Notes: a model not told the origin generated them from the letters alone. Shown: positions 12,491 to 52,904, numbered from the stretch's first letter. The stretch is 53,001 nt of DNA from Candidatus Parcubacteria bacterium (GCA_039798445.1 JBDKFZ010000009.1:1-53001), one strand, 5' to 3'. Translations and numbers: made by a program.

Positions 12491-12736
12491 AGGTGTGGAG
12501 TATTTATTACTAAAGAAAAGATACTACTACTATTAGGGCGGTGGATATGTGGAGATGTCGTTCGTTTGTTCTCATACAAGCTTTTTCTCGGACATACTCT
12601 GTGGATTATTTTGTATCGACTGTGTCTGAATCGGGGACTAATTTTTTCAATCCGATTTTCATCTCCCCGTCTCCCCTACTTGTCTCCATTCTGTCCGACC
12701 ACTTTTCACTCATCTCTACAGAACTTTTCCCCAGAC
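12491..12736. promoter_or_regulatory. Candidate oriC module (DnaA-box-like cluster plus AT-rich tract)
   Basis: Same-orientation TGTGGA-type boxes at 12494 (tgtggagta), 12540 (ggtggatat), 12548 (tgtggagat) and 12600 (tgtggatta, 8/9). AT-rich tract at 12501-12537. Confidence 0.4.
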
Positions 12737-14821: not shown

Positions 14822-14859
14822 TCGCTTCGCTCTGCACCACGTATTTCGGGCTTTTTTCA

Positions 14860-14883
14860 TAAAAGTTAATCGCCAATCGCTAA
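14860..14883 (+). promoter_or_regulatory. Shared leader/promoter element TAAAAGYTAATCGCCAATYGCTAA, copy 1
   Basis: 22/24 identical to 50736-50759. TATACT at 14893-14898 sits 7 nt before the yidC ATG. Confidence 0.5.
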
Positions 14884-16934: not shown

Positions 16935-16940
16935 AGTAGT

Positions 16941-17765: not shown

Positions 17766-17767
17766 AT

Positions 17768-18496: not shown

Positions 18497-18521
18497 GTGT
18501 ATTATCTCCTATTTATCGTTC

Positions 18522-19649: not shown

Positions 19650-19664
19650 GAGAGCCGGCTTCTA

Positions 19665-21731: not shown

Positions 21732-21733
21732 GA

Positions 21734-22384: not shown

Positions 22385-22444
22385 GCAGATATTGTAGCGT
22401 ACAAGGCACTATGAACAAGGAACAAAAACCGTTATTCTTATCTT

Positions 22445-22861
22445 ATGCGATTCGAAGTACCCCAATTCATCGATGTCGAAGATAAGATCTTCGGCCCGCT
22501 GACGTTCAAACAGTTCATCTATCTCGCGGGAGGCGCTGGAGCCTCAGTAATTCTGTGGTCATTCCTCCCTAAAATTGTGGCGATCCTTCTTATTCTCATC
22601 GTCGTTGGTCTTGCCTGTGCGCTTGCTTTCTACAAGATTAACAACAAGCCGTTCGTCGATTTTCTCGAATCAGCATTCAAATACAGCCTTGCAGGAAAGC
22701 TCTATATCTGGAAGAAAGAGGCGCGCCCTGTCGAACAGCATACCGCCGCCCTCCCTACCGATGAGTCTGTGGGCGTACCGCGTATCTCTGACAGTAAGCT
22801 TCGCGACCTGGCCTGGAGTCTCGATGTCCACGATTCGCTCTATAGCGAAACGGAGAAATAA
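22445..22861 (+). CDS. PrgI/VirB3-like small membrane protein
   Basis: MRFEVPQFIDVEDKIFGPLTFKQFIYLAGGAGA followed by two TM helices. Divergent from the VirB4 operon. Confidence 0.6.
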   Translation: MRFEVPQFIDVEDKIFGPLTFKQFIYLAGGAGASVILWSFLPKIVAILLILIVVGLACALAFYKINNKPFVDFLESAFKYSLAGKLYIWKKEARPVEQHTAALPTDESVGVPRISDSKLRDLAWSLDVHDSLYSETEK

Positions 22862-22887
22862 AACACCCCGCAGATGCGGGGTGTTTT
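22861..22887. terminator. Bidirectional terminator
   Basis: aaacaccccgc agat gcggggtgttt. Confidence 0.75.
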
Positions 22888-22896
22888 CAACTCTCT

Positions 22897-23484
22897 TTAA
22901 TTCGTCGGTTCTCGATAGGGGTCGACTGCTGCGTACTTGCCGTCTCGTACGGGGGCTGAGGGGGTTGGTTTCGGCACTGAGGGTGTCACTGGAGCCTTTA
23001 CGGTGACAGAATCCGGCGCAAGGCGGAATGTGCCGTCCATCTTCACTTGCGTCATATCCGCACCAAGTGTGCGCGAGACGGATGCCATAGCTGGTGGAGG
23101 CGTTTGAACTGCGGCGGGTGCTTGTGTTGGAGCAGCCGGCGCGACAAGTGGCGTCTTTGCATCGTGTGCTGCTTCCATGACATGCATACGGATTGGCGCG
23201 AGCAACAAAGTGTTTACATCTGCCACAAGCGCCTCGATCTTGGCGGATTCGAGTGTTGGCAACGCACGTCGAAGCTCGCTCGGGAGCTCTTTTGGAAGCA
23301 CAAGACCAAAGGTGATGGGCGCGAGTGTGTCGGCGACTGCTGCAATCTGTGCAACGGTGAGCTCGTGCTTCTTCATGATGGTATGAAAAGCTTCGGACTG
23401 CTCCTGTGACATAACAATATCTTGAATGTCCTGAGGGAGTTTATGAAGTCCTTCGAGAAGTTGTTGTTTGGTGAACCGTGACAC
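22897..23484 (-). CDS. Hypothetical protein (195 aa), helical N-domain plus P/A-rich tail
   Basis: ORF only. Last gene of the VirB6 operon. No family recognised. Confidence 0.5.
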   Translation of the reverse strand: MSRFTKQQLLEGLHKLPQDIQDIVMSQEQSEAFHTIMKKHELTVAQIAAVADTLAPITFGLVLPKELPSELRRALPTLESAKIEALVADVNTLLLAPIRMHVMEAAHDAKTPLVAPAAPTQAPAAVQTPPPAMASVSRTLGADMTQVKMDGTFRLAPDSVTVKAPVTPSVPKPTPSAPVRDGKYAAVDPYREPTN

Positions 23485-23493
23485 AAATGTTCG

Positions 23494-25752: not shown

Positions 25753-25778
25753 GTGTTCGGTATCGAAGTTGTCTCGCC

Positions 25779-27479
25779 TTATTCTTCAACCGTCGCACCT
25801 CCCGATTCAAAATTCACCTTTAGGTTCTTCCATGTAAAACCATCGGCGAGACCTTCATCTGCTGACGCATTTTCGGCGTTGCCGAGCTTGATGAAGAACC
25901 CACCGCGACCGCGCTGATCTCCACTTTGGAGTACATCAACTGTTGTGTCCTGGGAGACAATGGTCGAACCATCGACTTTTAAGGTCATGTTTCCGTTACC
26001 TGGGTTGTAGTCGACGATGACATGGTACGTGATGTTGTCTCGGAACGGGCTTCGCACAGACTTCTCGAGCATGTCACAGCTGTTCACAGCTGTTGCAAAA
26101 CGAACCTTACCGTTTTCTGTATTCAAAACAACCTCTGCAATATTGTTCCCTCCCCACTCTGATTGGTCTATATTCGGTCCTCGGTGGAGCCAGAACAAGT
26201 TGAGTTGTGAGGCATAGTCAGGGGCCGTTTGTGGTGCTGTGGTCAAATCAAACTCAGCTGTTACACGTGAGTAGTTCTGTCCAGGTGGGACATCAATATT
26301 GATTTCTTTGAATGGGTCATCGGCTGTTGAGGTGAATGCTTGTGGTTCGTTGACCAGTTGTCCATTCGGTCGGCCGGGCTCTCCTGCACCGCTACTTGGG
26401 GGTGTACATGCACCACCGCCACCGCCAACAGGAGGAGGTGGGAGCTCATGATCGATTTCCTCAGGGTCGTACTCCGCGAGGCCACCCTCTTGCGTGAGGA
26501 TGTCTGAGATGAGCCATGCGGCGAGAAGATTGAAGATCTCATCAAACTCATCGGCGGTCGCTATTTGGTCGAGGTTCACACCAAACGCTTGTTCGAGTGA
26601 CGTCTTGATTTGTGCTCCTGGAGTAACGACTCGTGGAGGATCACAGACGGTGCCGGATGGTGGAGGACCAACCTGAGTTTCGTCATAGGGTGTTGGGGGG
26701 CCTGCCTGGTCATCAGGAAGAGGCGTATAACAATCTTGCACCTCTTTTGAAAGGAATCCGCTACCGAGATCTATTTTTATTGACGCTTCACCTGATGCCG
26801 AATTGATTTTGGTGGCAAGCTCGTTGCGCGCCTCGAAGTATGCGCCGTAGGGGTTATTTTGAGGATTCGAAAACATCGATCGCCACCCGTCCCATCCACC
26901 GGCAGAGAAGTCGCCTGCAAGGAAAGCATCGATGTTCTCGACGCTCTCGCTGAGGGTACAGCTCGATCCATTGATACCGAGTGGGCCGCGTCCACTCGAA
27001 TTCTTGTAGAGCATGTTGAGCTGTAGCTGGATGTCAGCACGGAACGGAGAACAAAGGAATGGCGCGGCATTTTCGATGTAGCTGCCGACTTGTCGATCGG
27101 CAACGTTTCGAAGATATGCACCGATGTTTTGCACGAACGCAGGGTTGCCATTCATGCCTGTTTGTACCCACTGTACTGTCGAGCCGGTCATCTCTTGAAT
27201 GATGGCGTTCTTGAATGCCCAAAAGAGACAGTCGAGAATCTGCTCCTTGATGTTGGTCGCGATATCGTTCGTGGGCACGTTCATGCCGCCTGCGATGAAA
27301 CTGATGACCATGAGGATGGCTGCCGTCGCCGCACACATGACGACACCATTCTCGAAGTTCTCCTGGGTATCGTCGCTGAAGCTGCCGAATCCAGCATCGG
27401 CAACAATTGGAGTCACAATGTTCGTAACAAAAGCAAAGACGACGAGGAGTGTGAGGAATTTTCGTGCGAGAGTGTTCAT
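25779..27479 (-). CDS. Hypothetical membrane-anchored protein (566 aa) with a beta-sandwich-like C-domain
   Basis: N-terminal TM(s). Conserved-looking segment ILDCLFWAFKNAIIQEMTGSTVQWVQTGMNGNPAFVQN, a PPPPVGGGGG linker, and a jelly-roll-like C-terminus. Confidence 0.5.
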   Translation of the reverse strand: MNTLARKFLTLLVVFAFVTNIVTPIVADAGFGSFSDDTQENFENGVVMCAATAAILMVISFIAGGMNVPTNDIATNIKEQILDCLFWAFKNAIIQEMTGSTVQWVQTGMNGNPAFVQNIGAYLRNVADRQVGSYIENAAPFLCSPFRADIQLQLNMLYKNSSGRGPLGINGSSCTLSESVENIDAFLAGDFSAGGWDGWRSMFSNPQNNPYGAYFEARNELATKINSASGEASIKIDLGSGFLSKEVQDCYTPLPDDQAGPPTPYDETQVGPPPSGTVCDPPRVVTPGAQIKTSLEQAFGVNLDQIATADEFDEIFNLLAAWLISDILTQEGGLAEYDPEEIDHELPPPPVGGGGGACTPPSSGAGEPGRPNGQLVNEPQAFTSTADDPFKEINIDVPPGQNYSRVTAEFDLTTAPQTAPDYASQLNLFWLHRGPNIDQSEWGGNNIAEVVLNTENGKVRFATAVNSCDMLEKSVRSPFRDNITYHVIVDYNPGNGNMTLKVDGSTIVSQDTTVDVLQSGDQRGRGGFFIKLGNAENASADEGLADGFTWKNLKVNFESGGATVEE

Positions 27480-27482
27480 GAT

Positions 27483-28481
27483 TTATGGGGTGATGGTGGC
27501 ATGAACAAATGCATAACCCGGCTCCCCTGGTAGGAACTCCGTGTTCGATTTTACGAATGAAGCGCGGAGTTTTTCGAACAGGCCTGTCATGAGTGCCGAA
27601 TCTTTTTGGTATGCGTCGAGCGCCGCGATCGCCATAAGAGGATTGTCCCCCACTTTTGACAGGTCAACAAGGTCGGTACGCACAGCGATGAGTGCATTGG
27701 TGAGTGCAAGATGTGCATCTGCTCTGTCTGCAGAGACGCCCATACCTATGAAGTTATCGATAGTCACATCGTAGCGCTCAACCACAGCAGCCATGTCCTG
27801 CTGAAACTTTTCTGAGTCGGGCGCTTGGATGTAACTCAGCATGACGGAGAGCTCGCTTGGCGCTGGAGTACCACTTGTGTTCATGAGCGCTGTTCCGACG
27901 GCGTTCCCGTATGCTTTTGCTGACATTGTGCCCGCGATGATGGTGAGATCTGCCGTCGAGGCAATTGGATACGTGCGGTTCAGGTCTGTGGTCCCAAGCG
28001 CGATCTGTCCTGCAAGTGCAATTGAGTCCTCTTTCAAAGGTATGCCAGCTTCTTTTGCAGTAAGGAATTGAGAGATGAGTATTTTTCCTGCCAACTCTGT
28101 TGGTGTCGGAGGAGCTGCATCAAGGTCGATGGTGTTGAGAACGATTGCAGGAGCATCAGCAACGGTCTTTCTGCGGTTCTCGACTTCTTGATAATCTCCG
28201 GTTCCATCCCCATCACTATCGGGATTCACTGGGCTCAGCCCCCAGAGGTCTTCTTCCCAGTCTTTGAGTTTGTCTCCGTCACTGTCTTTCTCCTCGGTCT
28301 CTGTTCGGGGGGTGGTTGTATCAGAAAGAGAGACACGCATGGCGGACTCTTTGCCAAAAGAAGGTTCGCTGCGGAAGATCACTACCGCGACGACTATTGC
28401 CGCGACCACTATCAAAAGTGAAGCAACCCGCTTGCTCGGCGCGAATGCGCGCGCCTCGGAAACAAAACCCATATATGACAC
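27483..28481 (-). CDS. Hypothetical membrane-anchored protein with DxDxDG calcium-binding-like repeats
   Basis: TM LLIVVAAIVVAVVIF, then DSDGDKLKDWEED...NPDSDGDGTGDYQE (thrombospondin type 3-like). Confidence 0.5.
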   Translation of the reverse strand: MSYMGFVSEARAFAPSKRVASLLIVVAAIVVAVVIFRSEPSFGKESAMRVSLSDTTTPRTETEEKDSDGDKLKDWEEDLWGLSPVNPDSDGDGTGDYQEVENRRKTVADAPAIVLNTIDLDAAPPTPTELAGKILISQFLTAKEAGIPLKEDSIALAGQIALGTTDLNRTYPIASTADLTIIAGTMSAKAYGNAVGTALMNTSGTPAPSELSVMLSYIQAPDSEKFQQDMAAVVERYDVTIDNFIGMGVSADRADAHLALTNALIAVRTDLVDLSKVGDNPLMAIAALDAYQKDSALMTGLFEKLRASFVKSNTEFLPGEPGYAFVHATITP

Positions 28482-30550: not shown

Positions 30551-31093
30551 CTAGAGATCGTCCCAGTCGATAGTGAGTAAGTCTTTCTTACGAGGAGGGA
30601 TTGGGATGCCAGAACTATCGACTGCAGTCACCAACGCCTCATCGATATCAGTGAGAAATCGTGACGGGATGTTCACATTGGTCGAACCAAAGACTGTGCG
30701 CACTGATGCATACGAGAGATGTGCCTGTTCTTTTGCGCGGGTGATTGCAACGTAGAAAAGACGACGTTCTTCCTCGCGCTCTTCGGGCGTCGCGCGCATC
30801 TCACTACGCTCGCTCGGAAAGAGTCCTTCTTCGAGGCCGGCGATGAAAACATGTTTGAATTCAAGACCTTTTGCGGCATGTACGGTCATGAGCTTCACCG
30901 ACGCTTCGGCTTTTGACATTGCATCCTGATCGCTCGCGAGCGCCACTGCATCCATGAATGCGTGGAGTGATTCACCTTGTGGCAACACGTCGTAGCGCAT
31001 CGCGAGCGAAGCGAGTTCTTTGAGGTTCAGGAGTCGCTCGTTCCCTTCATCACCATCAGCGATGAGCTCTGTCTCAATGCCACTCTCTTTCAT
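30551..31093 (-). CDS. uvrD: UvrD/PcrA helicase, C-terminal fragment (domain 2A end)
   Basis: TVHAAKGLEFKHVFIAGLEEGLFP, EEERRLFYVAITRAK. In frame with the upstream fragment, 6 codons after its TAA. Confidence 0.8.
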   Translation of the reverse strand: MKESGIETELIADGDEGNERLLNLKELASLAMRYDVLPQGESLHAFMDAVALASDQDAMSKAEASVKLMTVHAAKGLEFKHVFIAGLEEGLFPSERSEMRATPEEREEERRLFYVAITRAKEQAHLSYASVRTVFGSTNVNIPSRFLTDIDEALVTAVDSSGIPIPPRKKDLLTIDWDDL

Positions 31094-31111: not shown

Positions 31112-32509
31112 TTATGGTGAGAGAGTCTCTGATACTTCGCGGATGCGCACCAAGAGCGCGCGGACATTCGCTATCTTTGCTGCGTGCGATGCGGAGAGCT
31201 CGTGTTCGAGTCCCGACGTGATGCGCAAGATGGTGGTTTTGCCGATGCCGCGCGCCGGCACGTTCACGATGCGCGCAAAGTTGGTCATACTCTCGGGATT
31301 GAGTGCGGCATTCAAGTACGACATCACATCCTTCACCTCTTTGCGTTCAAAGAATCGTGTGCCGAGCATTTGATATGGAATGCGTTCAGAGAGAAAGGCT
31401 TCTTCGAGTGCACGTGATTGAAAATGTGCGCGGAATAAAACCGCGATGTCTGCTGCGGAGATACCGCTTGCAATCAATTCTTTTGCGCGCTTTGCGACCC
31501 ACTGTGCTTCGTGCGTTTCGTTGAATGCGGTAAAGATTTCGATTGGCGCGCCGTCGGTGTTGTTGGTGAAGAGTGTCTTATCTTTGCGCATCGCATTTTG
31601 TTTGATCGCATCGTTTGCCGCGGTGAGAATCGTTTTTGTCGAACGATAGTTTTCTTCGAGCATGATGACGCGCGTTCCTTTGAACTCTTCTTCAAAACGC
31701 GCCAAGTTGCGCAAGTCGGCCGAGCGCCACGTGTAAATGCATTGATCGTGATCACCAACGACGCAGATGTTGTTTGCAGGATTTGCCAAGAGCTTTGCGA
31801 GCTCGTACTGCACGATGTTGGTGTCTTGGTACTCATCCACCATGATGTGCGAGAAACGACGACGATAGCGTTCGAGAATGTCGGGGTGTGACTTGAGCAT
31901 CTCGTATGTCGCCAAGAGGAGATCGTCGAAGTCGAACGCCTTCTCTTTGGCGAGCTCTTCGGCATAGCGCTCCCATACTGCCGTGACGGTCCGGCCGACA
32001 CGCTCATTGCTTCGTTCTTCTCGATACCGTGCGAGCGTCATTGCCTCCCCCTTGCTTCGCGACATAGTAGAGAGAATCGAGCTGGCCGACATTGTCTTTG
32101 GGTCCATGCCGAGATCTTTCTGGATCCTCTTAATGAGCGAGATCGAGTCGTCCCGGTCGAAGATACTGAATCGAGCCGGCAAACCAAGCGCCACGGCATT
32201 GTCTCGAAGTACCGAGACGCCGAAGCTGTGGAAGGTACCGACGAAGGGCGTTCTATATATAGGCTTGTCGGTCCCCGCATGCTCCGAGAGCAGATGTCCC
32301 ACTCGCTCGCGCATCTCCCCCGCCGCTTTGTTGGTGAATGTGATAGCCAAAATAGACTCTGGGGCGATACCTTGGGTGATGAGATGAAGCATTCGGCGGG
32401 TAAGGACACGGGTTTTTCCTGTCCCTGCTCCTGCCACAATGATTAATGGACCGGTCGTGTGGAGCACGGCCTCTTTTTGGGCAGGGTTGAGGTCGTCGAG
32501 GTGTTTCAT
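31112..32509 (-). CDS. uvrD: UvrD/PcrA helicase, N-terminal fragment ending at an in-frame TAA
   Basis: AGAGTGKT, DEYQDTN. Start trimmed to MKHLDDLNPAQKEAV. The stop TAA is at 31112-31114. Confidence 0.85.
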   Translation of the reverse strand: MKHLDDLNPAQKEAVLHTTGPLIIVAGAGTGKTRVLTRRMLHLITQGIAPESILAITFTNKAAGEMRERVGHLLSEHAGTDKPIYRTPFVGTFHSFGVSVLRDNAVALGLPARFSIFDRDDSISLIKRIQKDLGMDPKTMSASSILSTMSRSKGEAMTLARYREERSNERVGRTVTAVWERYAEELAKEKAFDFDDLLLATYEMLKSHPDILERYRRRFSHIMVDEYQDTNIVQYELAKLLANPANNICVVGDHDQCIYTWRSADLRNLARFEEEFKGTRVIMLEENYRSTKTILTAANDAIKQNAMRKDKTLFTNNTDGAPIEIFTAFNETHEAQWVAKRAKELIASGISAADIAVLFRAHFQSRALEEAFLSERIPYQMLGTRFFERKEVKDVMSYLNAALNPESMTNFARIVNVPARGIGKTTILRITSGLEHELSASHAAKIANVRALLVRIREVSETLSP

Positions 32510-32915
32510 GTTTTCGCATGATAGCATGCCCTCTAAAACCATTTACATAAAATTTAGTTCGTGGTCTAATCAAGCAAACCTGTCCTCCAAACCCCTTTTG
32601 GACGTCTTGGGGTAACCTTTTCACGGGCGGTGGAAAAATCCGTGATAATACGGTGTTTAAAAAATCTGTCAATACTCGACGCTCTCTTTGAGAGGACTAA
32701 AATGGTCTTTGTTAGCTCCCGAAACGATCCGACCTCAGACCCGCCTTAGATAGGCGGGCGTCGCACGAAAGAAAGCAGAATTAGTATCTAACCCCAATTG
32801 TATTACTAGTTTTTCTGGCGACTCTGACCCTTCCAAACGTAGCGCCGGGCTTCGTTGGCAGGTCACCAATAGGTTTTACGCTTCTCTCCAGACGGGCTTT
32901 TTTGTAGTCCTTCTT

Positions 32916-33972: not shown

Positions 33973-34500
33973 TTACTTTTTATTCACACTAAATCCGATT
34001 GGGCGACTTTTGACCAACGGAGGTTCTATGAGTTTGTTGAGTACCTCAAAGACAATCTTGAAATTTTTGTTGTACTTCTTCTCGAGTTCTTTAAGTTTTT
34101 CCGCGAGTTCGCGATGTGTTGCGAGTATCTGACGAAGTTGGACGAACGCGCGCATGATGGCGATATTCACCTTAATGGCGCGGTCGCTATTGAGAACACT
34201 TGAGAGCATCGCAACGCCTTGTTCAGTAAAGGCGTGGGGCATATTTCGTCGGCCACCTCTCCCTATCTTTGATATCGCAATTTGCGATATCAAAGCGGAG
34301 TGTTCTTTGGTATTAAGCCTGAACATAAAGTCGTTAGGAAAACGACTTTTATTTCTTCGGACTTGTTCATTGAGACGATGTGTCGGTACGTGATAGAGCA
34401 ATGCAAGATCACTGTCGAGGAGTACCTTGTTTCCGCGAATGAGATGTATTTTTCTGGAGATTACCTCAAGTACTACGACCGATGTTTTTGATGGTGTCAT
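33973..34500 (-). CDS. ORF6N (KilA-N-like) DNA-binding domain protein
   Basis: IHLIRGNKVLLDSDLALLYHVPTHRLNEQVRRNKSRFPNDFMFRL is the typical ORF6N signature. Confidence 0.8.
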   Translation of the reverse strand: MTPSKTSVVVLEVISRKIHLIRGNKVLLDSDLALLYHVPTHRLNEQVRRNKSRFPNDFMFRLNTKEHSALISQIAISKIGRGGRRNMPHAFTEQGVAMLSSVLNSDRAIKVNIAIMRAFVQLRQILATHRELAEKLKELEKKYNKNFKIVFEVLNKLIEPPLVKSRPIGFSVNKK

Positions 34501-34513
34501 ACAATAAGATGGC

Positions 34514-36055
34514 TCATTGCGGACTGAGTCCTTTCGACCGGTACTGCACCGCTTCGAGTATGTGTGCGGGCTCGATTGTCACAGCGCGTTCGAGGTCTGC
34601 GATTGTGCGCGCGAGTTTGATGACACGATGGTAACCGCGCCCCGACAAATCAAGTTTGGCTGCGGCTGTGTTGAGCGTGTCTGTTGCCTCTGGCGACATG
34701 TTGGCAAACTTTCCTATATCTTTTGGACCTAAGTCGCTGTTTTTCTTGATTGCTGTATCTGCATACCGATTAAGTTGTACGTTTCGCGTTTGTGCAACGC
34801 GTTCTGCAACCACTGCGCTCGGCTCGCCGTCGTCCATCGATGAAAGCTTTGCATGTTCGACCGGTGGTACTTCGATCCACATATCGATACGGTCGATAAT
34901 GGGACCAGATACTTTGCGCTGATAGCGCATGAGCGTATGTGCGCTGCACGTGCAGGTTTTCTTTGAACCCCAATTGCCGCATGGACAGGGGTTGAGTGCG
35001 GCGATGAGAATGACATCTGCGGGAAACTTTGCGGAGCCACGCACACGCGAAACGGATACGGAGCGTTCTTCGAGTGGCTGACGGAGTGCTTCAATCACAC
35101 GCCGTTCGAATTCGGGAAGTTCGTCGAGAAACAATACACCACGATGTGCGAGTGATAATTCGCCAGGGCGCGGTATCGACCCTCCCCCAATGAGCGCAAC
35201 ATACGAGCTCGTATGGTGTGGCGCGCGGAACGGCGGATGTGTAATCAAGTCGCCATTGAGTGTTCCTGCAATCGAATGGATGCCAGTCACTTCGAGTGCG
35301 GTCTCAAATGCTAAGGGTGGCATGATGCTCGCGCAGGCTTTTGCAAGGAGTGTCTTCCCTGTCCCTGGCGGTCCCCACAATCCAACATTGTGACCACCTG
35401 ACGCAGCGATTTCGAGCGCGCGCTTGGCGTGTTCCTGCCCCTTAATATCTTTAAGGTCGACTGCATACGAGGGAGGAATGTGAACGAAAGGCGTTTCTTC
35501 TTGTTGCCCTATCCGCTCGCGCTTCTTTCTTTTGGTATCGGGAGAGAGATGTTCGACGAGTTGAGCAAGCGTGTGTACGGGGAATATCTTTATATCTCTC
35601 ACGAGTGCAGCTTCGCGCGCATTGTCTGTGGGGACGTACACTTCGGTGAATCCAGATTCTTGTGCATGAATGACGAGCGGAAGCACGCCGGGTATCGGGC
35701 GCACATCACCATCGAGTGAGAGTTCTCCTAGAAAAAGTTTTTTGTCGGGATCGAATGAAACATCCTCTGTTGCAAGAAGATATGCGAGTGCGATGGGTAC
35801 ATCGAACATTGGACCTTCTTTTCGTACATCAGCGGGAGCAAGCGAGATGACAATCTTTTCGTTCTTGCTCTTAGGCGATTCGAATCCGGAATTTTTGATG
35901 GCCGCACACACACGATCGCGCGATTCCTCGACTGCTTTGTCGGGAAGTCCGACGAGCGTGAATGAATTCAATCCACGCGAGATATCGACCTCGACCGTTA
36001 CCGTGTGCGCCCTGAGCATCGATGTCTGTGCGCTGTATGTTTTGGCGAATGACAC
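34514..36055 (-). CDS. comM: YifB/ComM family Mg-chelatase-like AAA+ protein
   Basis: GTG start. Lon-like N-domain, GPPGTGKT, and a C-terminal Mg_chelatase_C-like segment. Confidence 0.9.
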   Translation of the reverse strand: MSFAKTYSAQTSMLRAHTVTVEVDISRGLNSFTLVGLPDKAVEESRDRVCAAIKNSGFESPKSKNEKIVISLAPADVRKEGPMFDVPIALAYLLATEDVSFDPDKKLFLGELSLDGDVRPIPGVLPLVIHAQESGFTEVYVPTDNAREAALVRDIKIFPVHTLAQLVEHLSPDTKRKKRERIGQQEETPFVHIPPSYAVDLKDIKGQEHAKRALEIAASGGHNVGLWGPPGTGKTLLAKACASIMPPLAFETALEVTGIHSIAGTLNGDLITHPPFRAPHHTSSYVALIGGGSIPRPGELSLAHRGVLFLDELPEFERRVIEALRQPLEERSVSVSRVRGSAKFPADVILIAALNPCPCGNWGSKKTCTCSAHTLMRYQRKVSGPIIDRIDMWIEVPPVEHAKLSSMDDGEPSAVVAERVAQTRNVQLNRYADTAIKKNSDLGPKDIGKFANMSPEATDTLNTAAAKLDLSGRGYHRVIKLARTIADLERAVTIEPAHILEAVQYRSKGLSPQ

Positions 36056-36151
36056 GAAGTCAGTGTATTCATGGAAGATAAAGAGAGCCTAAAGAACGTT
36101 CCGGTGCGCATTAATTAGAGTGATATACTGAGTGGTCTAAAGAATTAAGCT

Positions 36152-37345
36152 ATGTCGTTTTCCATAAAATACGAAATCAAGGAGCCAGCCATTAGAAGGC
36201 TTGAATTTATTTCAAAAGCGGACGGGCACCTCCAGATTCTCCGTATGAATCCTCAATGGGCATCCTTACTTGAAAGACGAGCTCGTATGATGGAGGCCGT
36301 TAGCTCTATCGGAATCGAAGGAACGGTTGTCTCTCTTGACCAAGCTAAAGCAATTACGTCTGGAGAAAAAGGTGTCGCGATTGGAGAGAAAGAAAAAAGA
36401 GAATTCGAGGGGTACTATGACTCTCTTGAGTTCATTAGGAGCCGTGTGGATGAGCCGTTGAATATTGTTTCTCTACTCAAAATTCACGAAAAGATTACAA
36501 GAGGAGATACGAAGGCAAGCCCTGGAAAAGTCCGAACAGACATAAGGTCAATTAAATCTAGGGGAAAAATTATTTATACGGCTCCTCCACCAGCGCATCT
36601 GGATGTCTTAATCAGAGAATTTATCGATTGGTTTAATAATGTTGCCGAAGATAAACAAATATCTCCAATAATTGCCGCTGCCGTCTGTCACTTTTGGTTT
36701 GTTTGGATTCACCCATTTTGTGACGGTAATGGGCGTACAGGAAGACTTCTGACCACGTATCTTCTTTTGAAGAAAAAGTCGGAAGGGATTAAATATTTTG
36801 CTCTTTCTGATTACTACAACACAGACAAGGATTCATACTATGATGCGCTAGAGAAAACGAATATATGCAATGCAACTGAGCCTGCCTTAAACTTCGACAA
36901 ACAAATGACTCTGTGGCTTGAATATTTTATTCAGTCGTATCAGTTTCAGATGGACAATCTTGAGCAAGTAACCAATAGAATATTACAACTTAATATTCGT
37001 GTCGCGCATTTACGACAGACAGGCCAGATAACAGAAACACATAATAAAGTCTTGTCGTTTCTTTCTTCGCGCGAAAGGGCCTCATATCCCGAGCTTGTTG
37101 AGTTGCTAGAAGTCAGTAAGCAGCGGGTGCATCAAATCCTCGAACCGCTTAGAGATGCAAAGATTCTTGCTGAAGAGAAGGTCGGCCAACTCATTTGGTT
37201 CAAGTTGGGGTCTCCTGAGTCTGAGTTGGATGAAAAAGGACTAAAGAAAAGAGTAAAGAAAAAACTTAACAGTAATGCTGTGGATAACGAAAAGAACCCC
37301 AACGAAGCCGTTGTGCGGCAGGGTGTGCTCCCAATCTTCGAATAA
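36152..37345 (+). CDS. Fic/DOC family protein with a C-terminal wHTH-like domain
   Basis: Fic motif HPFCDGNGRTGR. AT-richer than its surroundings. Confidence 0.85.
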   Translation: MSFSIKYEIKEPAIRRLEFISKADGHLQILRMNPQWASLLERRARMMEAVSSIGIEGTVVSLDQAKAITSGEKGVAIGEKEKREFEGYYDSLEFIRSRVDEPLNIVSLLKIHEKITRGDTKASPGKVRTDIRSIKSRGKIIYTAPPPAHLDVLIREFIDWFNNVAEDKQISPIIAAAVCHFWFVWIHPFCDGNGRTGRLLTTYLLLKKKSEGIKYFALSDYYNTDKDSYYDALEKTNICNATEPALNFDKQMTLWLEYFIQSYQFQMDNLEQVTNRILQLNIRVAHLRQTGQITETHNKVLSFLSSRERASYPELVELLEVSKQRVHQILEPLRDAKILAEEKVGQLIWFKLGSPESELDEKGLKKRVKKKLNSNAVDNEKNPNEAVVRQGVLPIFE

Positions 37346-48335: not shown

Positions 48336-49799
48336 TTACTCCACGTGATACTTCGATCGAATCTTCCCTATTTCTTCTGCTTCAATAGCTTCGCGCGCTT
48401 CTTTTGCGGCTTCTCCTAATTTTTTAAGTTCTGGTTCAGGTAGTGTGGCGAGTTCTTGTGCGCGTGCGATGAGAATCTCCGAGGTGTTCTGTGCAGGATC
48501 ATCCAACACAATCTCAAGAAGTGCATTAAGAATCCACCCAATACGTCGTCCGGGTTTCTCCTCAAGTTTTTCCATGATGTCGGCCCCCTTCACAGCAAGC
48601 ATGCCGACTGATACCGGATCGCGAAGCACTTCTTCGATCATTGCTTTGTATTTGCGCAAACGGTATGGCTGTTCTTTTGGTCGTCCGGTGCCGATGCGGT
48701 CGCACACGCGCAAGAGCAAAATATTCTCCACGTTATCGGTCCCCACATTGCTGATGAGACGACGCACAGCCGAGTGTGTAATCTGTTCTGTGTCAGAGAA
48801 GAACATGTGCCAGCGCACGAGCTTTACTACCGTCTCAATGACGTCGTTACCGTATCGCAATTCGCGCAAGCGGCGCTTGGCTATTTTGGCACCCACCATA
48901 TCGTGGCCGTGGAACGACCAGTCATCGTTTTTATCATTGAAAGCTTTTGTTGCAGGCTTGCCGATATCGTGGAAGAGCGCAGCAAGTCGCACCTCGAGCG
49001 TCGCATCCTTGTCTGCAGCGGCCTGGAGCGTGCGTACGATGTGTTCAAACACCGGATATGTGTGCGCCTGATTCTGCTTCACGTTGACCCCTTCCTCGAG
49101 CTCGGGGACGATGTGTTTCAAGATGCCGAGTTCGTAGAACATCTCAATACCTTTGCGCGGACGGGGCGACATGATGAGTTTGGTGAATTCATCACCAATG
49201 CGCTCGAGAGCAATATCCTTGAGTGTGTCGCCAAACTCCTTGATGGCAGCCTCAGTGGCCTTGTCGAGCTCAAAATCGAGCTCTGCGGAGAATCGTACGG
49301 CGCGCATGATGCGCAACGCATCCTCGGCAAATCGCTCGCGCGCCTCCCCTACCGTGCGGATGATTTTGTTTTCGATATCTTTTGCTCCTTTGTGCGGATC
49401 GGAGAAATTACCCGAGAGTGGGTCGTATGCAATCGCATTCATCGTAAAGTCGCGACGCTTGAGATCGTCAGAAAGATTCTTTGCAAATGTCACCGTGTCC
49501 GGGTGGCGCTTGTCTGAGTACTTTCCTTCGATGCGATACGGTGTCACTTCAATCACCTTGAGCTTGGGGTCGGTTGTTTCGTCATTCACTACCCCAACGG
49601 TCCCGTAGTCATTTTCATAAAAGGTATTCGGAAAGATTCTAACGATATCCTCAGGGGTCGCATTGGTCGTCACGTCCCAGTCCTTGGGCGTGCGGTGCAT
49701 GAGAATGTCGCGCACACAGCCACCCACGAGATGGGCTTCAAACCCTTCGTGCTGCAAAAGTGCCACAACAGCAATCGCCTCTTTGGGGACGTCATTCAT
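48336..49799 (-). CDS. cca: CCA-adding enzyme / tRNA nucleotidyltransferase with HD domain
   Basis: LVGGCVRDILM...DWDVTT, and HDIGK in the HD domain. Confidence 0.85.
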   Translation of the reverse strand: MNDVPKEAIAVVALLQHEGFEAHLVGGCVRDILMHRTPKDWDVTTNATPEDIVRIFPNTFYENDYGTVGVVNDETTDPKLKVIEVTPYRIEGKYSDKRHPDTVTFAKNLSDDLKRRDFTMNAIAYDPLSGNFSDPHKGAKDIENKIIRTVGEARERFAEDALRIMRAVRFSAELDFELDKATEAAIKEFGDTLKDIALERIGDEFTKLIMSPRPRKGIEMFYELGILKHIVPELEEGVNVKQNQAHTYPVFEHIVRTLQAAADKDATLEVRLAALFHDIGKPATKAFNDKNDDWSFHGHDMVGAKIAKRRLRELRYGNDVIETVVKLVRWHMFFSDTEQITHSAVRRLISNVGTDNVENILLLRVCDRIGTGRPKEQPYRLRKYKAMIEEVLRDPVSVGMLAVKGADIMEKLEEKPGRRIGWILNALLEIVLDDPAQNTSEILIARAQELATLPEPELKKLGEAAKEAREAIEAEEIGKIRSKYHVE

Positions 49800-50454: not shown

Positions 50455-50584
50455 TGTCCTTTATCCCCTCTTTATGTCCTTTATGGATAATGGGAGGTAA
50501 TTCACAGAACCCTTGTATCTGTGGATAAAAACGGGGACATGTGTAAAGGACAGGTCTTTTTGAGGGTCTTAGATATAAAGGTCG
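50455..50584. promoter_or_regulatory. Iteron cluster Y (TGTCCTTTA in both orientations) interleaved with DnaA boxes
   Basis: tgtccttta at 50455 and 50475. taaaggaca at 50544 and taaaggtcg at 50576. tatggataa at 50482 (8/9) and a perfect TGTGGATAA at 50520-50528. AT-rich 50588-50622 follows. Confidence 0.5.
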
Positions 50585-50622: not shown

Positions 50623-51157
50623 GGTTTCACGTGAAACAGTTTCATGTGAAATATGGGCTCCACTCCCTGCTCCCTCCAAGGAGCACCCCCGCCATGGCGG
50701 GGTCCGCTCCGAACCATATGTTTCGAGGTCTTTCCTAAAAGCTAATCGCCAATTGCTAATTGCTATCATGCTAACCCCCAAACGACGATTCGGCGATCTT
50801 GGCGAGCTTTTGGCGGCTCGGTTTCTCATGAAACATGGTTTTTCCATAATAGAGAAGAACTATTGGAAGCCATGGGGAGAGATTGATATCGTTGCCGAAC
50901 GTCTAGAAGCTGTTCCGGCCAGAGAAACGCTAGAAAATGGCTCTAAATCGAAGATGTTTCTTGTGAAACCACGATATAAGGAGGTTTCAAGGGTTCTTCA
51001 CTTTGTTGAGGTAAAGACAGTTTCATGTGTAACGGATAGGGAAGGTGTTTCACGTGAAAACATTAGACCTGAGGAAAACATGCATTATCACAAGATGCGG
51101 CGCTTTTCACGGGCCGTTCAGACCTATATGGAAGAGAGGCGTGTTTCTTGTGAAACT
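50623..51157. promoter_or_regulatory. Array of six parS-like sites (consensus TGTTTCACGTGAAACA)
   Basis: 50623 GGTTTCACGTGAAACA (15/16), 50638 (13/16), 50955 (13/16), 51019 (12/16), 51046 TGTTTCACGTGAAAAC (14/16), 51142 (13/16). Confidence 0.75.
50736..50759 (+). promoter_or_regulatory. Shared leader/promoter element TAAAAGYTAATCGCCAATYGCTAA, copy 2
   Basis: 22/24 identical to 14860-14883. It ends 8 nt before the yraN ATG. Confidence 0.5.
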
Positions 51158-51241
51158 CCCTTTCAGGTCGATTTGGTGACCGTCAGGATCGACTACAGGA
51201 AAAGGGTGGGTAGGGTAGAGATGCTCGAGAAGATTTTCTGA
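50768..51241 (+). CDS. yraN: YraN (UPF0102) family endonuclease-like protein with an internal insertion
   Basis: FGDLGELLAARFLMKHGFSIIEKNYWKPWGEIDIVAE...LHFVEVKT...VDLVTV. About 30 extra residues lie between the GEIDIV and FVEVK blocks. Carries 4 parS-like sites. Confidence 0.75.
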   Translation: MLTPKRRFGDLGELLAARFLMKHGFSIIEKNYWKPWGEIDIVAERLEAVPARETLENGSKSKMFLVKPRYKEVSRVLHFVEVKTVSCVTDREGVSRENIRPEENMHYHKMRRFSRAVQTYMEERRVSCETPFQVDLVTVRIDYRKRVGRVEMLEKIF

Positions 51242-51307: not shown

Positions 51308-51583
51308 CTACTTCGTGCTGCGGGGGTCGGTCCAATCGGGATCGATCCACTTGAGCATGCTCTTCCGGGTGGCCGTGATGGCGTTGGCCTTCTGCATCTT
51401 CTTCAGGCAGGTGGGGCAGGTCAGGGTGTGGACCATGAAGCTCAAGTTCCACTCGTCCTTTTCCATCGAGGAAAGAAGCTTTCCCTCCTCCTCACACTTT
51501 TCGACGGCTTCGCAGTCATCCGCGTAGGGCTTGGTGCCATCCGCAAGCTTGCTGAGGAACAGTTCTTCGGAACAGTAGGACAT
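51308..51583 (-). CDS. Small cytoplasmic HxxxCxxC (zf-HC2/ZAS-like) protein, paralogue 1 (91 aa)
   Basis: AGGAG RBS (caaaggagactatATG). MSYC...DDCEAV...MVHTLTCPTCLKKMQKANAITATRKSML. Very high GC3. Confidence 0.65.
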   Translation of the reverse strand: MSYCSEELFLSKLADGTKPYADDCEAVEKCEEEGKLLSSMEKDEWNLSFMVHTLTCPTCLKKMQKANAITATRKSMLKWIDPDWTDPRSTK

Positions 51584-51660
51584 ATAGTCTCCTTTGAAAG
51601 AACATCGTTTTCTGTTTCGTCCTTTCGGACTCATCAGCAGAGATACACATCTCTGGACAG

Positions 51661-51694: not shown

Positions 51695-51979
51695 CTACTT
51701 CGTGCTCTGCTGGGAGCACCACTCGAAGTCGGGGTCGATGTAACGGAGCATGCTCTTGCGGAGGGCCGTGATGGCGTTGGCCTTCTGCATCTTCTGCCGG
51801 CAGGTGGGGCAGGCCATGAAGTGAATCATGGCGCCCAAGTTCCAGTCGTTGGTCTCCGCCAGTTCGAGAAGGCTGTCACCGCGCTCCTCGTGCCGGGCGA
51901 CGGTCTGGCAGGTGTTCGGGCGGGACATGACGCCTTCCTCAAACTGGTTGAAGAGATGCTCGTCGATGCAGTAGGACAT
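51695..51979 (-). CDS. Small cytoplasmic HxxxCxxC (zf-HC2/ZAS-like) protein, paralogue 2 (94 aa)
   Basis: Near-identical RBS context (caaggagactatATG vs caaaggagactatATG in paralogue 1). MSYC...NTCQTV...MIHFMACPTCRQKMQKANAITALRKSML. Very high GC3. Confidence 0.65.
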   Translation of the reverse strand: MSYCIDEHLFNQFEEGVMSRPNTCQTVARHEERGDSLLELAETNDWNLGAMIHFMACPTCRQKMQKANAITALRKSMLRYIDPDFEWCSQQSTK

Positions 51980-52157
51980 ATAGTCTCCTTGTAAAGAACA
52001 TTGGTGATGGGCTCTAGTGCTCATCGTCTGCAAACATAATAACCCAAAAACCAACAAATGTCAAAGATACAATTTACAATACGCATAACAAACCAAAGAA
52101 GCGTTGTGCTTTAAGTCTTTAAATGTTATATACTTAACTGTACAAATACGATAAACC

Positions 52158-52904
52158 ATGAATATTAACGCTGTACTTGCAAAAATAGGCCTCACCGACA
52201 CAGAAAGCGCTCTGTATCTGTTTCTCCTTGAGAACGGTATTTCAAGCCCGCCACAGATATCTCGTGGAACGGGTGTGGTGCGTTCCAATGCTCATTACGT
52301 CCTGAAACAGCTTATTGAGAAGGGATTGGTAACACGCGAGAAGAAGGGTAAGCGTTATGTGTATGGACCAAACGATCCGTCATCGGCTCTGGCACTTGTT
52401 GAGCGAAAGAAGAAAGTTCTTGAGGAAGCGATTCCTGACTTGCGTGCATTGTACAAAAAAACAAAAAACAAACCGGTTGTTAAATTTTATGATGGTCCCG
52501 AAGAAGTGCGTGCAATTTTTGAAGACATACTCGAATCAAAATCAAAACAAGTGCTCGGCTTTGCCTCAACAGGAAAATTGTTTGAAATCATTCCCAATTA
52601 TTTTCAAAAACGTTTTCAACCCGAATTAAAAAAGCGAGAAATCTTTTTGAAAGATATTCTTACATTTGAATCGGGCACGCAGGGTGTGGCGACACACGAT
52701 GTTGCTGGTGCGTATTATGAATATCGAGTGTTGCCACAAAAGTACGAAGGGGTATTGTCTGATGTAATTATTTGGGATGACATGGTTGCTATCATTTCTC
52801 TTGAGGAACCAATCTTTGGAACGGTCTTGATGAACGCACAGCTTTCACATACGTTTCGCACGATGGTTGAAATTATTTGGAAGTCATTGGAGAGAAGAGA
52901 CTAG
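52158..52904 (+). CDS. TrmB family transcriptional regulator
   Basis: N-terminal wHTH LGLTDTESALYLFLLENGISSPPQISRGTGVVRSNAHYVLKQLIEKGLV plus a TrmB-type C-domain. Confidence 0.75.
   Translation: MNINAVLAKIGLTDTESALYLFLLENGISSPPQISRGTGVVRSNAHYVLKQLIEKGLVTREKKGKRYVYGPNDPSSALALVERKKKVLEEAIPDLRALYKKTKNKPVVKFYDGPEEVRAIFEDILESKSKQVLGFASTGKLFEIIPNYFQKRFQPELKKREIFLKDILTFESGTQGVATHDVAGAYYEYRVLPQKYEGVLSDVIIWDDMVAIISLEEPIFGTVLMNAQLSHTFRTMVEIIWKSLERRD

What the first reader, a model, noticed from the sequence alone, without database searches (positions are those of the whole stretch)
50623..51157. Dense array of six parS-like sites, four of them written into the yraN coding sequence in two different reading frames
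Seen: six 16-mers match TGTTTCACGTGAAACA at 12-15 of 16 positions within 535 bp. Two abut each other just upstream of yraN, and four lie inside it. Three of the in-gene sites are read as V-S-x-x-T/N, and one is read in another frame as M-F-L-V-K-P. Three of the four in-gene sites lie at or just after an insertion of about 30 residues relative to the usual compact YraN layout. My rough estimate is about 0.4 such matches by chance in the whole window. Established: TGTTNCACGTGAAACA is the ParB/Spo0J centromere site, conserved across bacteria and clustered near oriC. Inference: this is the chromosome's partition or SMC-loading centromere, about 37 kb from dnaA. The use of two frames argues for selection at the DNA level, with the host gene tolerating the sites. 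No parAB genes are in the window.
Basis: partly seen in the sequence, partly recalled or inferred. Interest (0 to 1): 0.7.

Follow-up and report, generated by a model that had tools for sequence, protein, structure and literature searches.

The report
Centromere sites written into yraN
Seven copies of the bacterial chromosome-segregation site parS are packed into and just before one small gene of an uncultured Parcubacteria bacterium, and 80 related species keep the same arrangement, so a centromere has been written into protein-coding DNA.

Summary
There are seven parS-like sites, not six, at 50623-51157. Two lie upstream of yraN and five lie inside it. Shuffles of the window predict 0.40 such matches, and there are none anywhere else in the window.

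Selection acts on the DNA, not the protein:
- Among close relatives, 1 of 22 third-codon positions inside the sites varies, against 98 of 134 outside them.
- Across 79 orthologues, the genes carry 128 sites. Synonymous recoding of the same proteins gives 8.

The cluster is a trait of the whole lineage. In 80 Parcubacteria species (GC 32-57%), sites concentrate in the cca–yraN region. Beyond it, density falls to near chance. Some relatives carry in-frame tandem V-S-R-E-T repeats in loops of YraN and of the CCA-adding enzyme.

The cluster sits about 38 kb from an oriC-like dnaA–dnaN spacer. A tandem DnaA-box element lies about 100 bp upstream of it and is conserved in 63 of 80 loci.

The best reading is an origin-proximal ParB loading centromere. 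The main gap is ParB itself. I found no ParB in the window, in the flanks reached by contig walking, or in 1.35 Mb of related DNA. Whole genomes could not be searched.

The parts
50623..50638 (.). parS site 1, GGTTTCACGTGAAACA (15/16, perfect 14-nt core). Non-coding, 130-145 nt before the yraN ATG. Likely the primary high-affinity site.
   Evidence: It is invariant in all close relatives (0 of 14 core columns vary, against 160 of 290 in the neighbouring non-coding DNA). An upstream site, often a perfect match, is present in most of the 80 loci.
50638..50653 (.). parS-like site 2, AGTTTCATGTGAAATA (13/16). It abuts site 1, with centres 15 bp apart.
   Evidence: It is weakly constrained: 11 of 14 core columns vary among close relatives. 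L082 carries a different parS-like variant there, and L088 has lost the site. A 15-bp spacing recurs in other loci.
50768..51241 (+). yraN (UPF0102, predicted PD-(D/E)xK-type endonuclease), 157 aa. It hosts five sites.
   Evidence: PF02021, E=3.3e-15. 922 homologues were found, and the named ones come from Patescibacteria/Parcubacteria. The AlphaFold2 model has a mean pLDDT of 81.7.
50820..50835 (.). parS-like site 3, GGTTTCTCATGAAACA (13/16), read as R18-F-L-M-K-H23 at the end of helix 1.
Evidence: 24 of 80 orthologues have a site at the same alignment position. In L088 the codon change M->V keeps the site match.
50903..50986 (+). Clade-specific 28-residue insertion (L46-V73) in YraN, predicted to be disordered.
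   Evidence: Alignment A1. Residues 54-66 have pLDDT below 50. The insertion is present only in the 89-100% identity clade.
50955..50970 (.). parS-like site 4, TGTTTCTTGTGAAACC (13/16), read as M63-F-L-V-K-P68 inside the insertion.
   Evidence: It is invariant in all close relatives and is found only in this clade (3 of 80).
51019..51034 (.). parS-like site 5, AGTTTCATGTGTAACG (12/16; core 12/14), read as V85-S-C-V-T89.
   Evidence: 44 of 80 orthologues have a site at the same alignment position.
51046..51061 (.). parS site 6, TGTTTCACGTGAAAAC (14/16; core 13/14), read as V94-S-R-E-N98. It lies 27 bp from site 5.
   Evidence: It is invariant in close relatives. 38 of 80 orthologues have a site at the same alignment position. 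Spacings of 24 and 27 bp are the commonest between neighbouring sites.
51142..51157 (.). parS-like site 7, TGTTTCTTGTGAAACT (13/16), read as V126-S-C-E-T130 in the loop after helix 107-123.
   Evidence: The core is invariant in close relatives. 13 of 80 orthologues have a site at the same alignment position.
50482..50550 (+). Conserved tandem DnaA-box element: TATGGATAA (50482), then a perfect TGTGGATAA (50520), followed by CGGGGACATGTGTAAAGGACA. It sits about 100 bp upstream of parS site 1.
   Evidence: A perfect box in the same orientation lies upstream of yraN in 63 of 80 loci (1.92 per kb against 0.046 per kb elsewhere). The consensus is TGTGGATAA-N3-TGKGGAMATGTG..TAAAGGACA. It is conserved among close relatives.
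48336..49799 (-). cca (CCA-adding enzyme), the conserved divergent neighbour of yraN. It has no sites in this genome but hosts sites in most relatives.
   Evidence: Pfam hits to PolyA_pol and HD. The synteny xth–cca–yraN is conserved. In 58 cca orthologues there are 76 sites against 5.07±2.1 after synonymous recoding.
12491..12736 (.). Probable oriC, the dnaN–dnaA spacer. It contains an AT-rich stretch, a trinucleotide run TACTACTACTAT (12521-12535), a GC cluster and two adjacent DnaA-box-like sequences (12540-12556).
   Evidence: Sequence. The cumulative GC-skew minimum is at about 11-12 kb. dnaA and dnaN were identified, and rpmH–rnpA–yidC run divergently from dnaA. The resemblance to the box/GC-cluster/DnaA-trio layout is my reading from memory of Richardson et al. 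2016.

Best explanation
This is the origin-proximal parS centromere of a Parcubacteria (Patescibacteria) chromosome.

Proposed mechanism: dimers of a canonical ParB nucleate at the perfect upstream site (50623). The weaker neighbouring and in-gene sites probably raise the local loading rate. Once loaded, ParB clamps spread over the cca–yraN region. This marks the origin domain, 38 kb from oriC, for SMC loading and/or ParA-driven segregation.

These genomes are small and gene-dense. The array has therefore been accommodated inside coding sequence, in the two reading frames that avoid the TGA stop:
- GTT TCA CGT GAA ACn, read as V-S-R-E-T
- nnG TTT CAC GTG AAA Cnn, read as x-F-H-V-K-x

The sites mostly fall in loops of YraN and, in relatives, in loops of the CCA-adding enzyme. 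The array grows by in-frame duplication of 24- or 27-bp units.

Shown: the sites exist. They are under DNA-level purifying selection. They are conserved in position across 80 species. They are confined to this locus within the DNA that could be read. They lie near oriC.

Inferred: ParB binds them, and what follows from binding (spreading, SMC or ParA recruitment).
For: 1. Seven sites in 535 bp against 0.40 expected, and none elsewhere in the 53 kb.
2. The logos of 82 upstream, 129 in-gene and 89 cca-side sites from 80 species all give GTTTCACGTGAAAC with weak T/A flanks, which is the canonical parS.
3. Site density is 315 in 277 kb of the cca–yraN zone and 6 in 898 kb of flanks. Chance gives 0.0032 per kb. 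This holds over a GC range of 32-57%.
4. Codon-level constraint in yraN: 128 sites observed against 8.15±2.4 after synonymous recoding. In cca the figures are 76 against 5.07±2.1.
5. In the close clade, 1 of 22 third-codon positions inside sites varies, against 98 of 134 outside (p=6e-10). The upstream site has 0 of 14 variable columns, against 160 of 290 around it.
6. Four of the window's five in-gene sites are positionally homologous to sites in distant orthologues.
7. Relatives carry tandem arrays with a 24/27-bp period inside coding loops. L058 CCA has six V-x-x-E-T repeats, and L077 YraN has four.
8. The cluster is origin-proximal. It is 38 kb from the oriC-like dnaA–dnaN spacer and the GC-skew minimum. 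In three relatives dnaA is within 4.5-8.8 kb of yraN.
9. In the structure model, the sites sit at the end of a helix, in loops, or in a disordered insertion.
10. Canonical ParA and ParB exist, and are needed for fitness, in at least one cultured Patescibacterium: Southlakia SEML1_0183/0184, with PF02195+PF17762 (supplement of PMC10633639).
11. A published review states that par operons and most parS sites lie in the ori domain and that multiple ori-proximal sites are common (PMC7022226).
Against: - No ParB or ParA gene was found in any readable sequence. This covers the window, about 24 kb further left and about 17 kb further right reached by contig walking in the same or closely related populations, and 1.35 Mb of Parcubacteria loci searched with a ParB profile (0 hits at E<=1; the positive control gave 104 hits).
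- ParB is therefore not linked to the parS cluster within ±10 kb in any of the 80 species.
- Its presence elsewhere in these genomes is unverified. About 1.7 copies would be expected in 1.35 Mb if parB were placed at random, so finding none is only weak evidence.
- Most in-gene sites deviate in the central CACGTG (A 64%, C 73%, G 70%). Their affinity for ParB may be low.
- No binding data exist.
Confidence: 0.8

Rival explanations
1. The palindromes are operators of a local transcription factor that controls the divergent cca and yraN promoters. A candidate is the TrmB-family HTH protein encoded 0.9 kb downstream at 52158-52904. In this reading the resemblance to parS is coincidental or convergent.
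For: The best site lies in the promoter-proximal spacer of a divergent gene pair, next to other conserved non-coding motifs. A TrmB-like gene is nearby in the window and in some relatives.
Against: - The TrmB-like gene neighbours yraN in only 17 of 80 loci.
- Sites extend up to about 2.5 kb into coding sequence on both sides and form tandem arrays of up to six. This is not how operators are laid out.
- The motif matches parS at all 14 core positions in 27 sites.
Confidence: 0.06
2. The sites are bound by a different, unidentified DNA-binding protein because these genomes lack ParB. This would be an orphan parS-like array with another role, for example origin-domain organisation together with DnaA.
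For: No ParB was found in any accessible sequence (and the contig walks). A conserved tandem DnaA-box element always accompanies the array.
Against: - The accessible DNA is a small fraction of each genome.
- The motif is exactly the ParB site.
- Another Patescibacteria class encodes a canonical ParAB pair that is needed for fitness.
- From memory of Livny et al. 2007, which I could not read, parS consensus clusters have been found only in genomes that encode ParB.
Confidence: 0.08
3. The similarity is a by-product of selection on the protein, for a V-S-[CR]-E-T or F-L-x-K peptide motif of YraN.
For: V85 and S86 are nearly invariant in the protein alignment, and F-L-x-K-x-G is a family-wide motif.
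Against: - Synonymous recoding of the same proteins gives 16-fold fewer sites.
- Third-codon positions inside the sites are frozen.
- The best sites are non-coding.
- The same DNA motif appears in unrelated proteins (CCA enzyme, XerC, hypothetical proteins) and in two frames.
Confidence: 0.02
4. The palindromes act at the RNA level, as short hairpins in the yraN and cca mRNAs.
For: Each site can form a 5-bp stem with a 4-nt loop. Of 92 symmetric double deviations, 62 are complementary.
Against: - In 708 of 800 deviating symmetric pairs only one arm changes, which breaks the pairing.
- The would-be loop ACGT is itself conserved.
- The strongest sites lie upstream in non-coding DNA, next to DnaA boxes.
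Confidence: 0.03

Closest known systems
Bacillus subtilis Spo0J/ParB parS sites (Lin & Grossman 1998; Breier & Grossman 2007; cited from memory)
   Same: They share the 16-bp palindrome TGTTNCACGTGAAACA and an origin-proximal location. Several B. subtilis sites also lie inside coding sequences, including inside spo0J itself. Natural sites there carry 1-2 mismatches.
   Different: In B. subtilis about ten sites are spread singly over roughly 20% of the chromosome, and one lies in parB itself. Here seven sites sit within 535 bp. They reshape the host protein through insertions and V-S-R-E-T repeats, and they are not linked to parAB within ±10 kb in any of 80 species.
Clustered chromosomal parS arrays next to parAB: Caulobacter crescentus (about 7 sites), Myxococcus xanthus (about 24), Corynebacterium glutamicum (10), Pseudomonas aeruginosa parS1-4 (from memory; the general statements are in PMC7022226)
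   Same: These are also multiple ori-proximal parS sites that act as one loading zone for ParB, with SMC recruitment.
   Different: Those clusters span 5-35 kb and sit beside the par operon. This one is 10-50 times denser. It is anchored at a cca–yraN gene pair across a whole lineage, and much of it is encoded in frame.
Plasmid iteron-type centromeres (F sopC 12×43 bp; R1 parC; from memory)
   Same: They are dense, regularly spaced tandem arrays of binding sites. In relatives here the arrays have a 24- or 27-bp period.
   Different: Plasmid centromeres are non-coding, lie adjacent to their partition operon, and have plasmid-specific sequences. Here the unit is the chromosomal parS, and the repeats are translated.
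Noc-binding sites (NBS, ATTTCCCGGGAAAT; from memory of Wu et al. 2009 and Jalal et al. 2020)
   Same: They are 14-16-bp palindromes bound by a ParB-family protein.
   Different: The logo here has G at core position 1 and A at position 6 (parS-type), not A and C (NBS-type). NBS are also scattered away from the origin.

Membership tests
Chromosomal ParB–parS centromere | A 16-bp palindrome matching tGTTNCACGTGAAACa | tested here: met
   Site 1 matches 15/16 with a perfect 14-nt core, and the others match 12-14/16. The logo from 80 species equals the consensus.
Chromosomal ParB–parS centromere | Sites concentrated in the origin-proximal domain and rare elsewhere | tested here: met
   The cluster is 38 kb from the oriC-like dnaA–dnaN spacer. 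There are no other sites in the 53 kb or in about 24 kb further left. Flanks of 80 species hold 6 hits in 898 kb, against 315 in 277 kb in the zone. Whole genomes could not be scanned.
Chromosomal ParB–parS centromere | Sites maintained by selection on the DNA sequence | tested here: met
   Synonymous recoding gives 8.15 against 128 observed in yraN and 5.07 against 76 in cca. Third-codon positions inside sites are frozen (1/22 against 98/134).
Chromosomal ParB–parS centromere | A cognate ParB (ParBc PF02195 plus the HTH) encoded in the same genome | not testable with these tools
   None was found in the window, in about 41 kb of extra flanks, or in 1.35 Mb of related loci. Database searches with a ParB profile returned only Bacillus ParB or ParB on contigs showing no Parcubacteria affinity. 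ParAB does exist in a Saccharibacterium.
Chromosomal ParB–parS centromere | ParB binding, CTP-dependent loading and spreading at the sites | not testable with these tools
   This needs ChIP-seq or in-vitro assays.
Plasmid-type iteron centromere | A tandem array adjacent to its own parA/parB operon on a mobile replicon | tested here: not met
   The context is chromosomal (dnaA, dnaN, rpmH, rnpA, yidC). No par genes lie within ±10 kb in 80 loci.
Noc-binding site | The ATTTCCCGGGAAAT-type half-site (A at position 2 and C at position 7 of the 8-nt half-site) | tested here: not met
   The logo shows G (87-95%) and A (64-93%) at those positions.
Local transcription-factor operator | Sites confined to promoter regions, with a conserved adjacent regulator gene | tested here: not met
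   Most sites are intragenic and reach up to 2.5 kb away. The TrmB-like neighbour is present in 17 of 80 loci.
YraN / UPF0102 (host gene) | A match to PF02021 above the gathering score | tested here: met
   56.7 bits against a cut-off of 23.6.

The most novel reading that the evidence does not exclude
Across the Parcubacteria, the chromosomal centromere is a fixed, lineage-wide module: a tandem DnaA-box element, then parS, then in-frame parS arrays. It is anchored at the divergent cca–yraN gene pair and is physically unlinked from parAB. The module expands and contracts by in-frame 24/27-bp duplications. These duplications write V-S-R-E-T-type peptide repeats into surface loops of two housekeeping proteins. 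The sequence of the proteins is thus partly dictated by a DNA-segregation signal, and ParB and DnaA occupancy may be coupled at one locus.
Probability: 0.5. Interest if true: 0.78.

Novelty: new variant of a known kind. Interest (0 to 1): 0.64.

Why it matters
parS/ParB centromeres are textbook biology. Three things here appear to be unreported. My full-text searches linking parS with Patescibacteria, CPR or yraN found nothing relevant.

1. This is a first look at the centromere of the Parcubacteria, a very large uncultured lineage. It gives a concrete, testable locus conserved in 80 species.
2. It is an unusually clear case of a cis-acting DNA signal overriding codon choice, and even protein sequence. 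The signal produces translated tandem repeats in two housekeeping enzymes. This is useful for understanding overlapping codes in gene-dense genomes. It also warns annotators against reading such peptide repeats as protein motifs.
3. A class-conserved DnaA-box pair sits 100 bp from parS. This points to a physical link between the replication-initiation and segregation machineries that could be tested biochemically without culturing the organism.

Tried and rejected
ParB hunt. All attempts were negative or uninformative.
- A six-frame regex for the GERRxRA box and the ParA Walker A motif, over the window and 80 loci, found nothing.
One search showed that the Spo0J and Thermus ParB sequences were accurate.
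- hmmsearch with a 3-sequence ParB profile over 1.35 Mb gave 0 hits, against 104 in the control.
- A protein-database search with the profile returned only Bacillus ParB. That search was wasted.
- The metagenome scan returned 80 ParB loci. Their neighbours showed at most 55% identity to my Parcubacteria protein set, so none could be assigned to this lineage.
- Contig walking through cluster members reached about 24 kb left of the window and about 19.5 kb right of yraN. No par genes turned up.

Literature. No paper links parS to CPR, Patescibacteria or yraN. Livny 2007 is not held in the library.

Hypothesis that the yraN upstream region is oriC. I considered this because the window's best DnaA-box cluster and an AT-rich stretch lie there. 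I judged it less likely for two reasons. The cumulative GC-skew minimum is at 11-12 kb. The dnaA–dnaN spacer has the layout of boxes, GC cluster, trinucleotide run and AT-rich stretch. The multi-locus skew profile was ambiguous: left<0 and right>0 in 20 of 37 loci, but the signal is confounded by gene orientation.

Other checks. The protein-motif and RNA-hairpin explanations were rejected. Rfam gave only the two tRNAs.

Full report
**1. The observation**

A mismatch search for TGTTTCACGTGAAACA with up to 3 mismatches finds six matches in the 53,001-bp window. All lie between 50623 and 51157. Dinucleotide-preserving shuffles give a mean of 0.40 and never reach six.

| Position | Match | Location |
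|---|---|---|
| 50623 | 15/16, perfect 14-nt core | non-coding, upstream of yraN |
| 50638 | 13/16 | non-coding, upstream of yraN |
| 50820 | 13/16 | inside yraN |
| 50955 | 13/16 | inside yraN |
| 51019 | 12/16 | inside yraN |
| 51046 | 14/16 | inside yraN |
| 51142 | 13/16 | inside yraN |

The two upstream sites lie 115-145 nt before the ATG. yraN spans 50768-51241 on the + strand and matches PF02021 at E=3.3e-15. No other position in the window matches the core GTTTCACGTGAAAC with 2 or fewer mismatches.

In three in-gene sites the core starts at codon position 1 (V-S-x-x-T/N). In two it starts at codon position 3 (x-F-L-x-K-x). The remaining frame would read TGA inside a consensus site. Two frames are therefore all that coding sequence permits.

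**2. Organism and surroundings**

YraN homologues that carry a name come from Patescibacteria/Parcubacteria. NCBI taxonomy places Adlerbacteria in the Parcubacteria group.

The window is a chromosomal origin region:

- dnaN is at 11390-12490 and dnaA at 12737-14110, both on the - strand.
- rpmH, rnpA and yidC run divergently from dnaA.
- The cumulative GC-skew minimum is at about 11-12 kb.
- The dnaN–dnaA spacer contains an AT-rich stretch, a TACTACTACTAT trinucleotide run, a GC cluster and two adjacent DnaA-box-like sequences.

I read this as the oriC unwinding module. The comparison with the published DnaA-trio layout is from memory. The parS cluster is thus about 38 kb from oriC.

Pfam scans of essentially all ORFs of 100 aa or more found no ParA, ParB or SMC in the window.

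**3. Is selection on the DNA or on the protein?**

I ran it in two ways.

*Close relatives.* I aligned six distinct sequences with 89-100% YraN identity, taken from metagenome contigs.

- Third-codon positions vary at 98 of 134 columns outside the sites but at 1 of 22 inside them (Fisher p=6e-10).
- First and second codon positions do not differ significantly.
- The upstream site 1 core is invariant (0 of 14 columns vary). Around it, 160 of 290 non-coding columns vary and there are large indels just downstream.
- Site 2 is variable. One relative has replaced it with a different parS-like sequence.

*Distant relatives.* For 79 orthologues at 35-55% identity, I resampled every codon from locus-specific synonymous usage.

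| Gene | Sites observed | Expected after recoding |
|---|---|---|
| yraN, 79 orthologues | 128 | 8.15±2.4 (maximum 15 in 300 replicates) |
| yraN in the window | 5 | 0.39 |

The amino-acid sequence therefore does not explain the sites.

**4. The cluster is a trait of the lineage**

A scan of GTDB species genomes with the YraN alignment returned 80 loci. Their record titles name Adler-, Zambryski-, Nomura- and Wolfebacteria, Paceibacterota and Minisyncoccia. Their GC content ranges from 32% to 57%.

- Core matches with 2 or fewer mismatches number 315 in the 277 kb from -2.5 kb to +1 kb around yraN. There are 6 in the remaining 898 kb, close to the chance rate of 0.0032 per kb.
- The median is four sites per genome, with a range of 1-11. 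The window's seven is in the upper tail.
- Logos of upstream, in-gene and neighbouring-gene sites are all GTTTCACGTGAAAC with weak T/A flanks.
- Synteny is conserved as xth(+) – cca(-) – [tRNAs] – yraN(+).
- In most relatives, additional sites lie inside cca. There are 76 in 58 genes, against 5.07±2.1 after recoding. The xth control gives 4 against 0.9.

Four of the window's five in-gene sites are positionally homologous to sites in distant orthologues.

| Window site | Orthologues with a site at that position |
|---|---|
| 50820 | 24/80 |
| 50955 | 3/80 |
| 51019 | 44/80 |
| 51046 | 38/80 |
| 51142 | 13/80 |

Site 50955 belongs to a 28-residue insertion found only in the window's clade (L46-V73).

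**5. How the sites are accommodated**

Neighbouring sites are most often 24 or 27 bp apart, and 15 bp apart in non-coding DNA. Some relatives carry translated tandem arrays:

- The L058 CCA-adding enzyme has six consecutive 8-9-residue units: VPHET, VSRET, VTHET, VSPET, VPHET and VPRVT. They sit in the loop between FGTVGV and IEVTPYR.
- L077 has five units in the same loop.
- L077 YraN has four: VSRVT, VPRET, VSHET and VPHET.

An AlphaFold2 model of the window's YraN has a mean pLDDT of 81.7. It places the sites as follows.

| Site | Position in the model |
|---|---|
| 3 | C-terminal end of helix 1 |
| 4 | disordered insertion (pLDDT below 50) |
| 5 | end of a strand |
| 6 | following low-confidence loop |
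| 7 | loop after the long helix |

The protein tolerates the sites mainly in loops. The array appears to grow by in-frame duplication.

**6. A companion element**

A perfect DnaA box (TGTGGATAA on the + strand) lies at 50520. A one-mismatch box lies at 50482. These are two of only 13 near-consensus boxes in the window, and 50520 is one of only two perfect ones.

A perfect box in the same orientation lies upstream of yraN in 63 of 80 loci. Its density is 1.92 per kb, against 0.046 per kb elsewhere. It is embedded in a conserved element, TGTGGATAA-N3-TGKGGAMATGTG…TAAAGGACA, typically 60-160 bp before the first parS.

I considered whether this region might be oriC. The window's GC skew and the architecture of the dnaA–dnaN spacer argue against it. 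A multi-locus skew profile was ambiguous. I treat the element as a DnaA-binding or regulatory module next to the centromere.

**7. The missing partner**

No ParB or ParA was found by any of the following:

- motif search;
- tblastn;
- a ParB profile over 1.35 Mb of Parcubacteria DNA, which gave 0 hits against 104 in the control;
- contig walks in the same or closely related populations, covering about 24 kb left of the window and about 19.5 kb right of yraN.

Attempts to fetch a Parcubacteria ParB from the public collections also failed.

The accessible DNA would contain only about 1.7 parB copies if the gene were placed at random. Absence from it is therefore weak evidence. What it does show is that parB is not within ±10 kb of the centromere in any of the 80 species. 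That departs from my recollection, which I could not check, that chromosomal parS clusters usually lie close to parAB.

A cultured Saccharibacterium encodes adjacent ParA and ParB genes that are classed as growth-defect or essential (supplement of PMC10633639). The phylum-level group therefore does possess the system.

**8. Verdict**

The best explanation, at confidence 0.8, is an origin-proximal ParB-loading centromere written largely into coding sequence.

The rivals are each unlikely, for the reasons given in their entries:

- a local operator;
- an orphan array bound by another protein;
- a protein motif;
- an RNA hairpin.

The kind of element is known. Four things are new, and I found no report of them:

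- the density;
- the translated tandem repeats;
- the lineage-wide anchoring at cca–yraN away from parAB;
- the adjacent DnaA-box module.

Noticed in passing
window 50482-50550; L002-L081, 50-315 bp upstream of yraN: A tandem DnaA-box element (TGTGGATAA-N3-TGKGGAMATGTG..TAAAGGACA) is conserved in the same orientation in 63 of 80 Parcubacteria loci, about 100 bp upstream of the first parS. It could be a DnaA-regulated promoter or a DnaA-binding module coupled to the centromere.
   Followed up: partly
window 12491-12736: The dnaN–dnaA spacer looks like the oriC unwinding module. It has an AT-rich stretch, a TACTACTACTAT trinucleotide run, a GGGCGG cluster and two adjacent DnaA-box-like sequences (GGTGGATAT, TGTGGAGAT). 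It coincides with the GC-skew minimum.
   Followed up: partly
L058 (cca, 971-1097 nt upstream of yraN); L077 (cca, and yraN +153..+234): Relatives carry five or six in-frame tandem 8-9-residue V-x-x-E-T repeats in one loop of the CCA-adding enzyme, and four in YraN. Each repeat encodes a parS-like site, with a 24- or 27-bp period.
   Followed up: yes
window 15657-28481: A block of minus-strand genes lies right next to yidC and has type IV secretion hallmarks: T4SS pilin PF18895, a VirB4/TraG-like ATPase PF19044 and PrgI PF12666. Many large ORFs in the block have no Pfam match. All are oriented head-on to replication from the inferred oriC.
   Followed up: no
window 30551-31093 and 31112-32542 (- strand): UvrD/Rep helicase is split into two adjacent ORFs 18 nt apart: the N-terminal 476 aa and the C-terminal 180 aa. 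This could be a frameshift, a stop-interrupted gene, a genuine split gene or an assembly error.
   Followed up: no
window 51308-51634 and 51695-52057 (- strand): Two paralogous small cysteine-rich ORFs (108 and 120 aa) lie just downstream of yraN and have no Pfam hit. They share a C-terminal C-P-T-C…K-M-Q-K-A-N-A-I-T-A…R-K-S-M-L…I-D-P-D block. The yraN–TrmB interval is variable among close relatives.
   Followed up: no
window 50731-50759 and 14855-14883: A 29-nt motif, TTTC[CA]TAAAAG[CT]TAATCGCCAAT[TC]GCTAA (26 of 29 identical), sits immediately upstream of the start codons of yraN and yidC. It may be a shared leader or promoter element.
   Followed up: no
window 50454, 50474, 47931 (+ strand); 50542, 47912 (inverted): The 11-mer ATGTCCTTTAT, or its reverse complement TAAAGGACA(T), recurs in the tRNA–yraN and xth–cca spacers. 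The inverted copy at 50542 is part of the class-conserved DnaA-box element.
   Followed up: partly
window 33973-37345: A low-GC stretch (GC 0.44-0.47) holds an ORF6N/KilA-N-type protein, ComM and a Fic-domain protein. The window's only other perfect DnaA box (37279) also lies here. This may be a small island.
   Followed up: no
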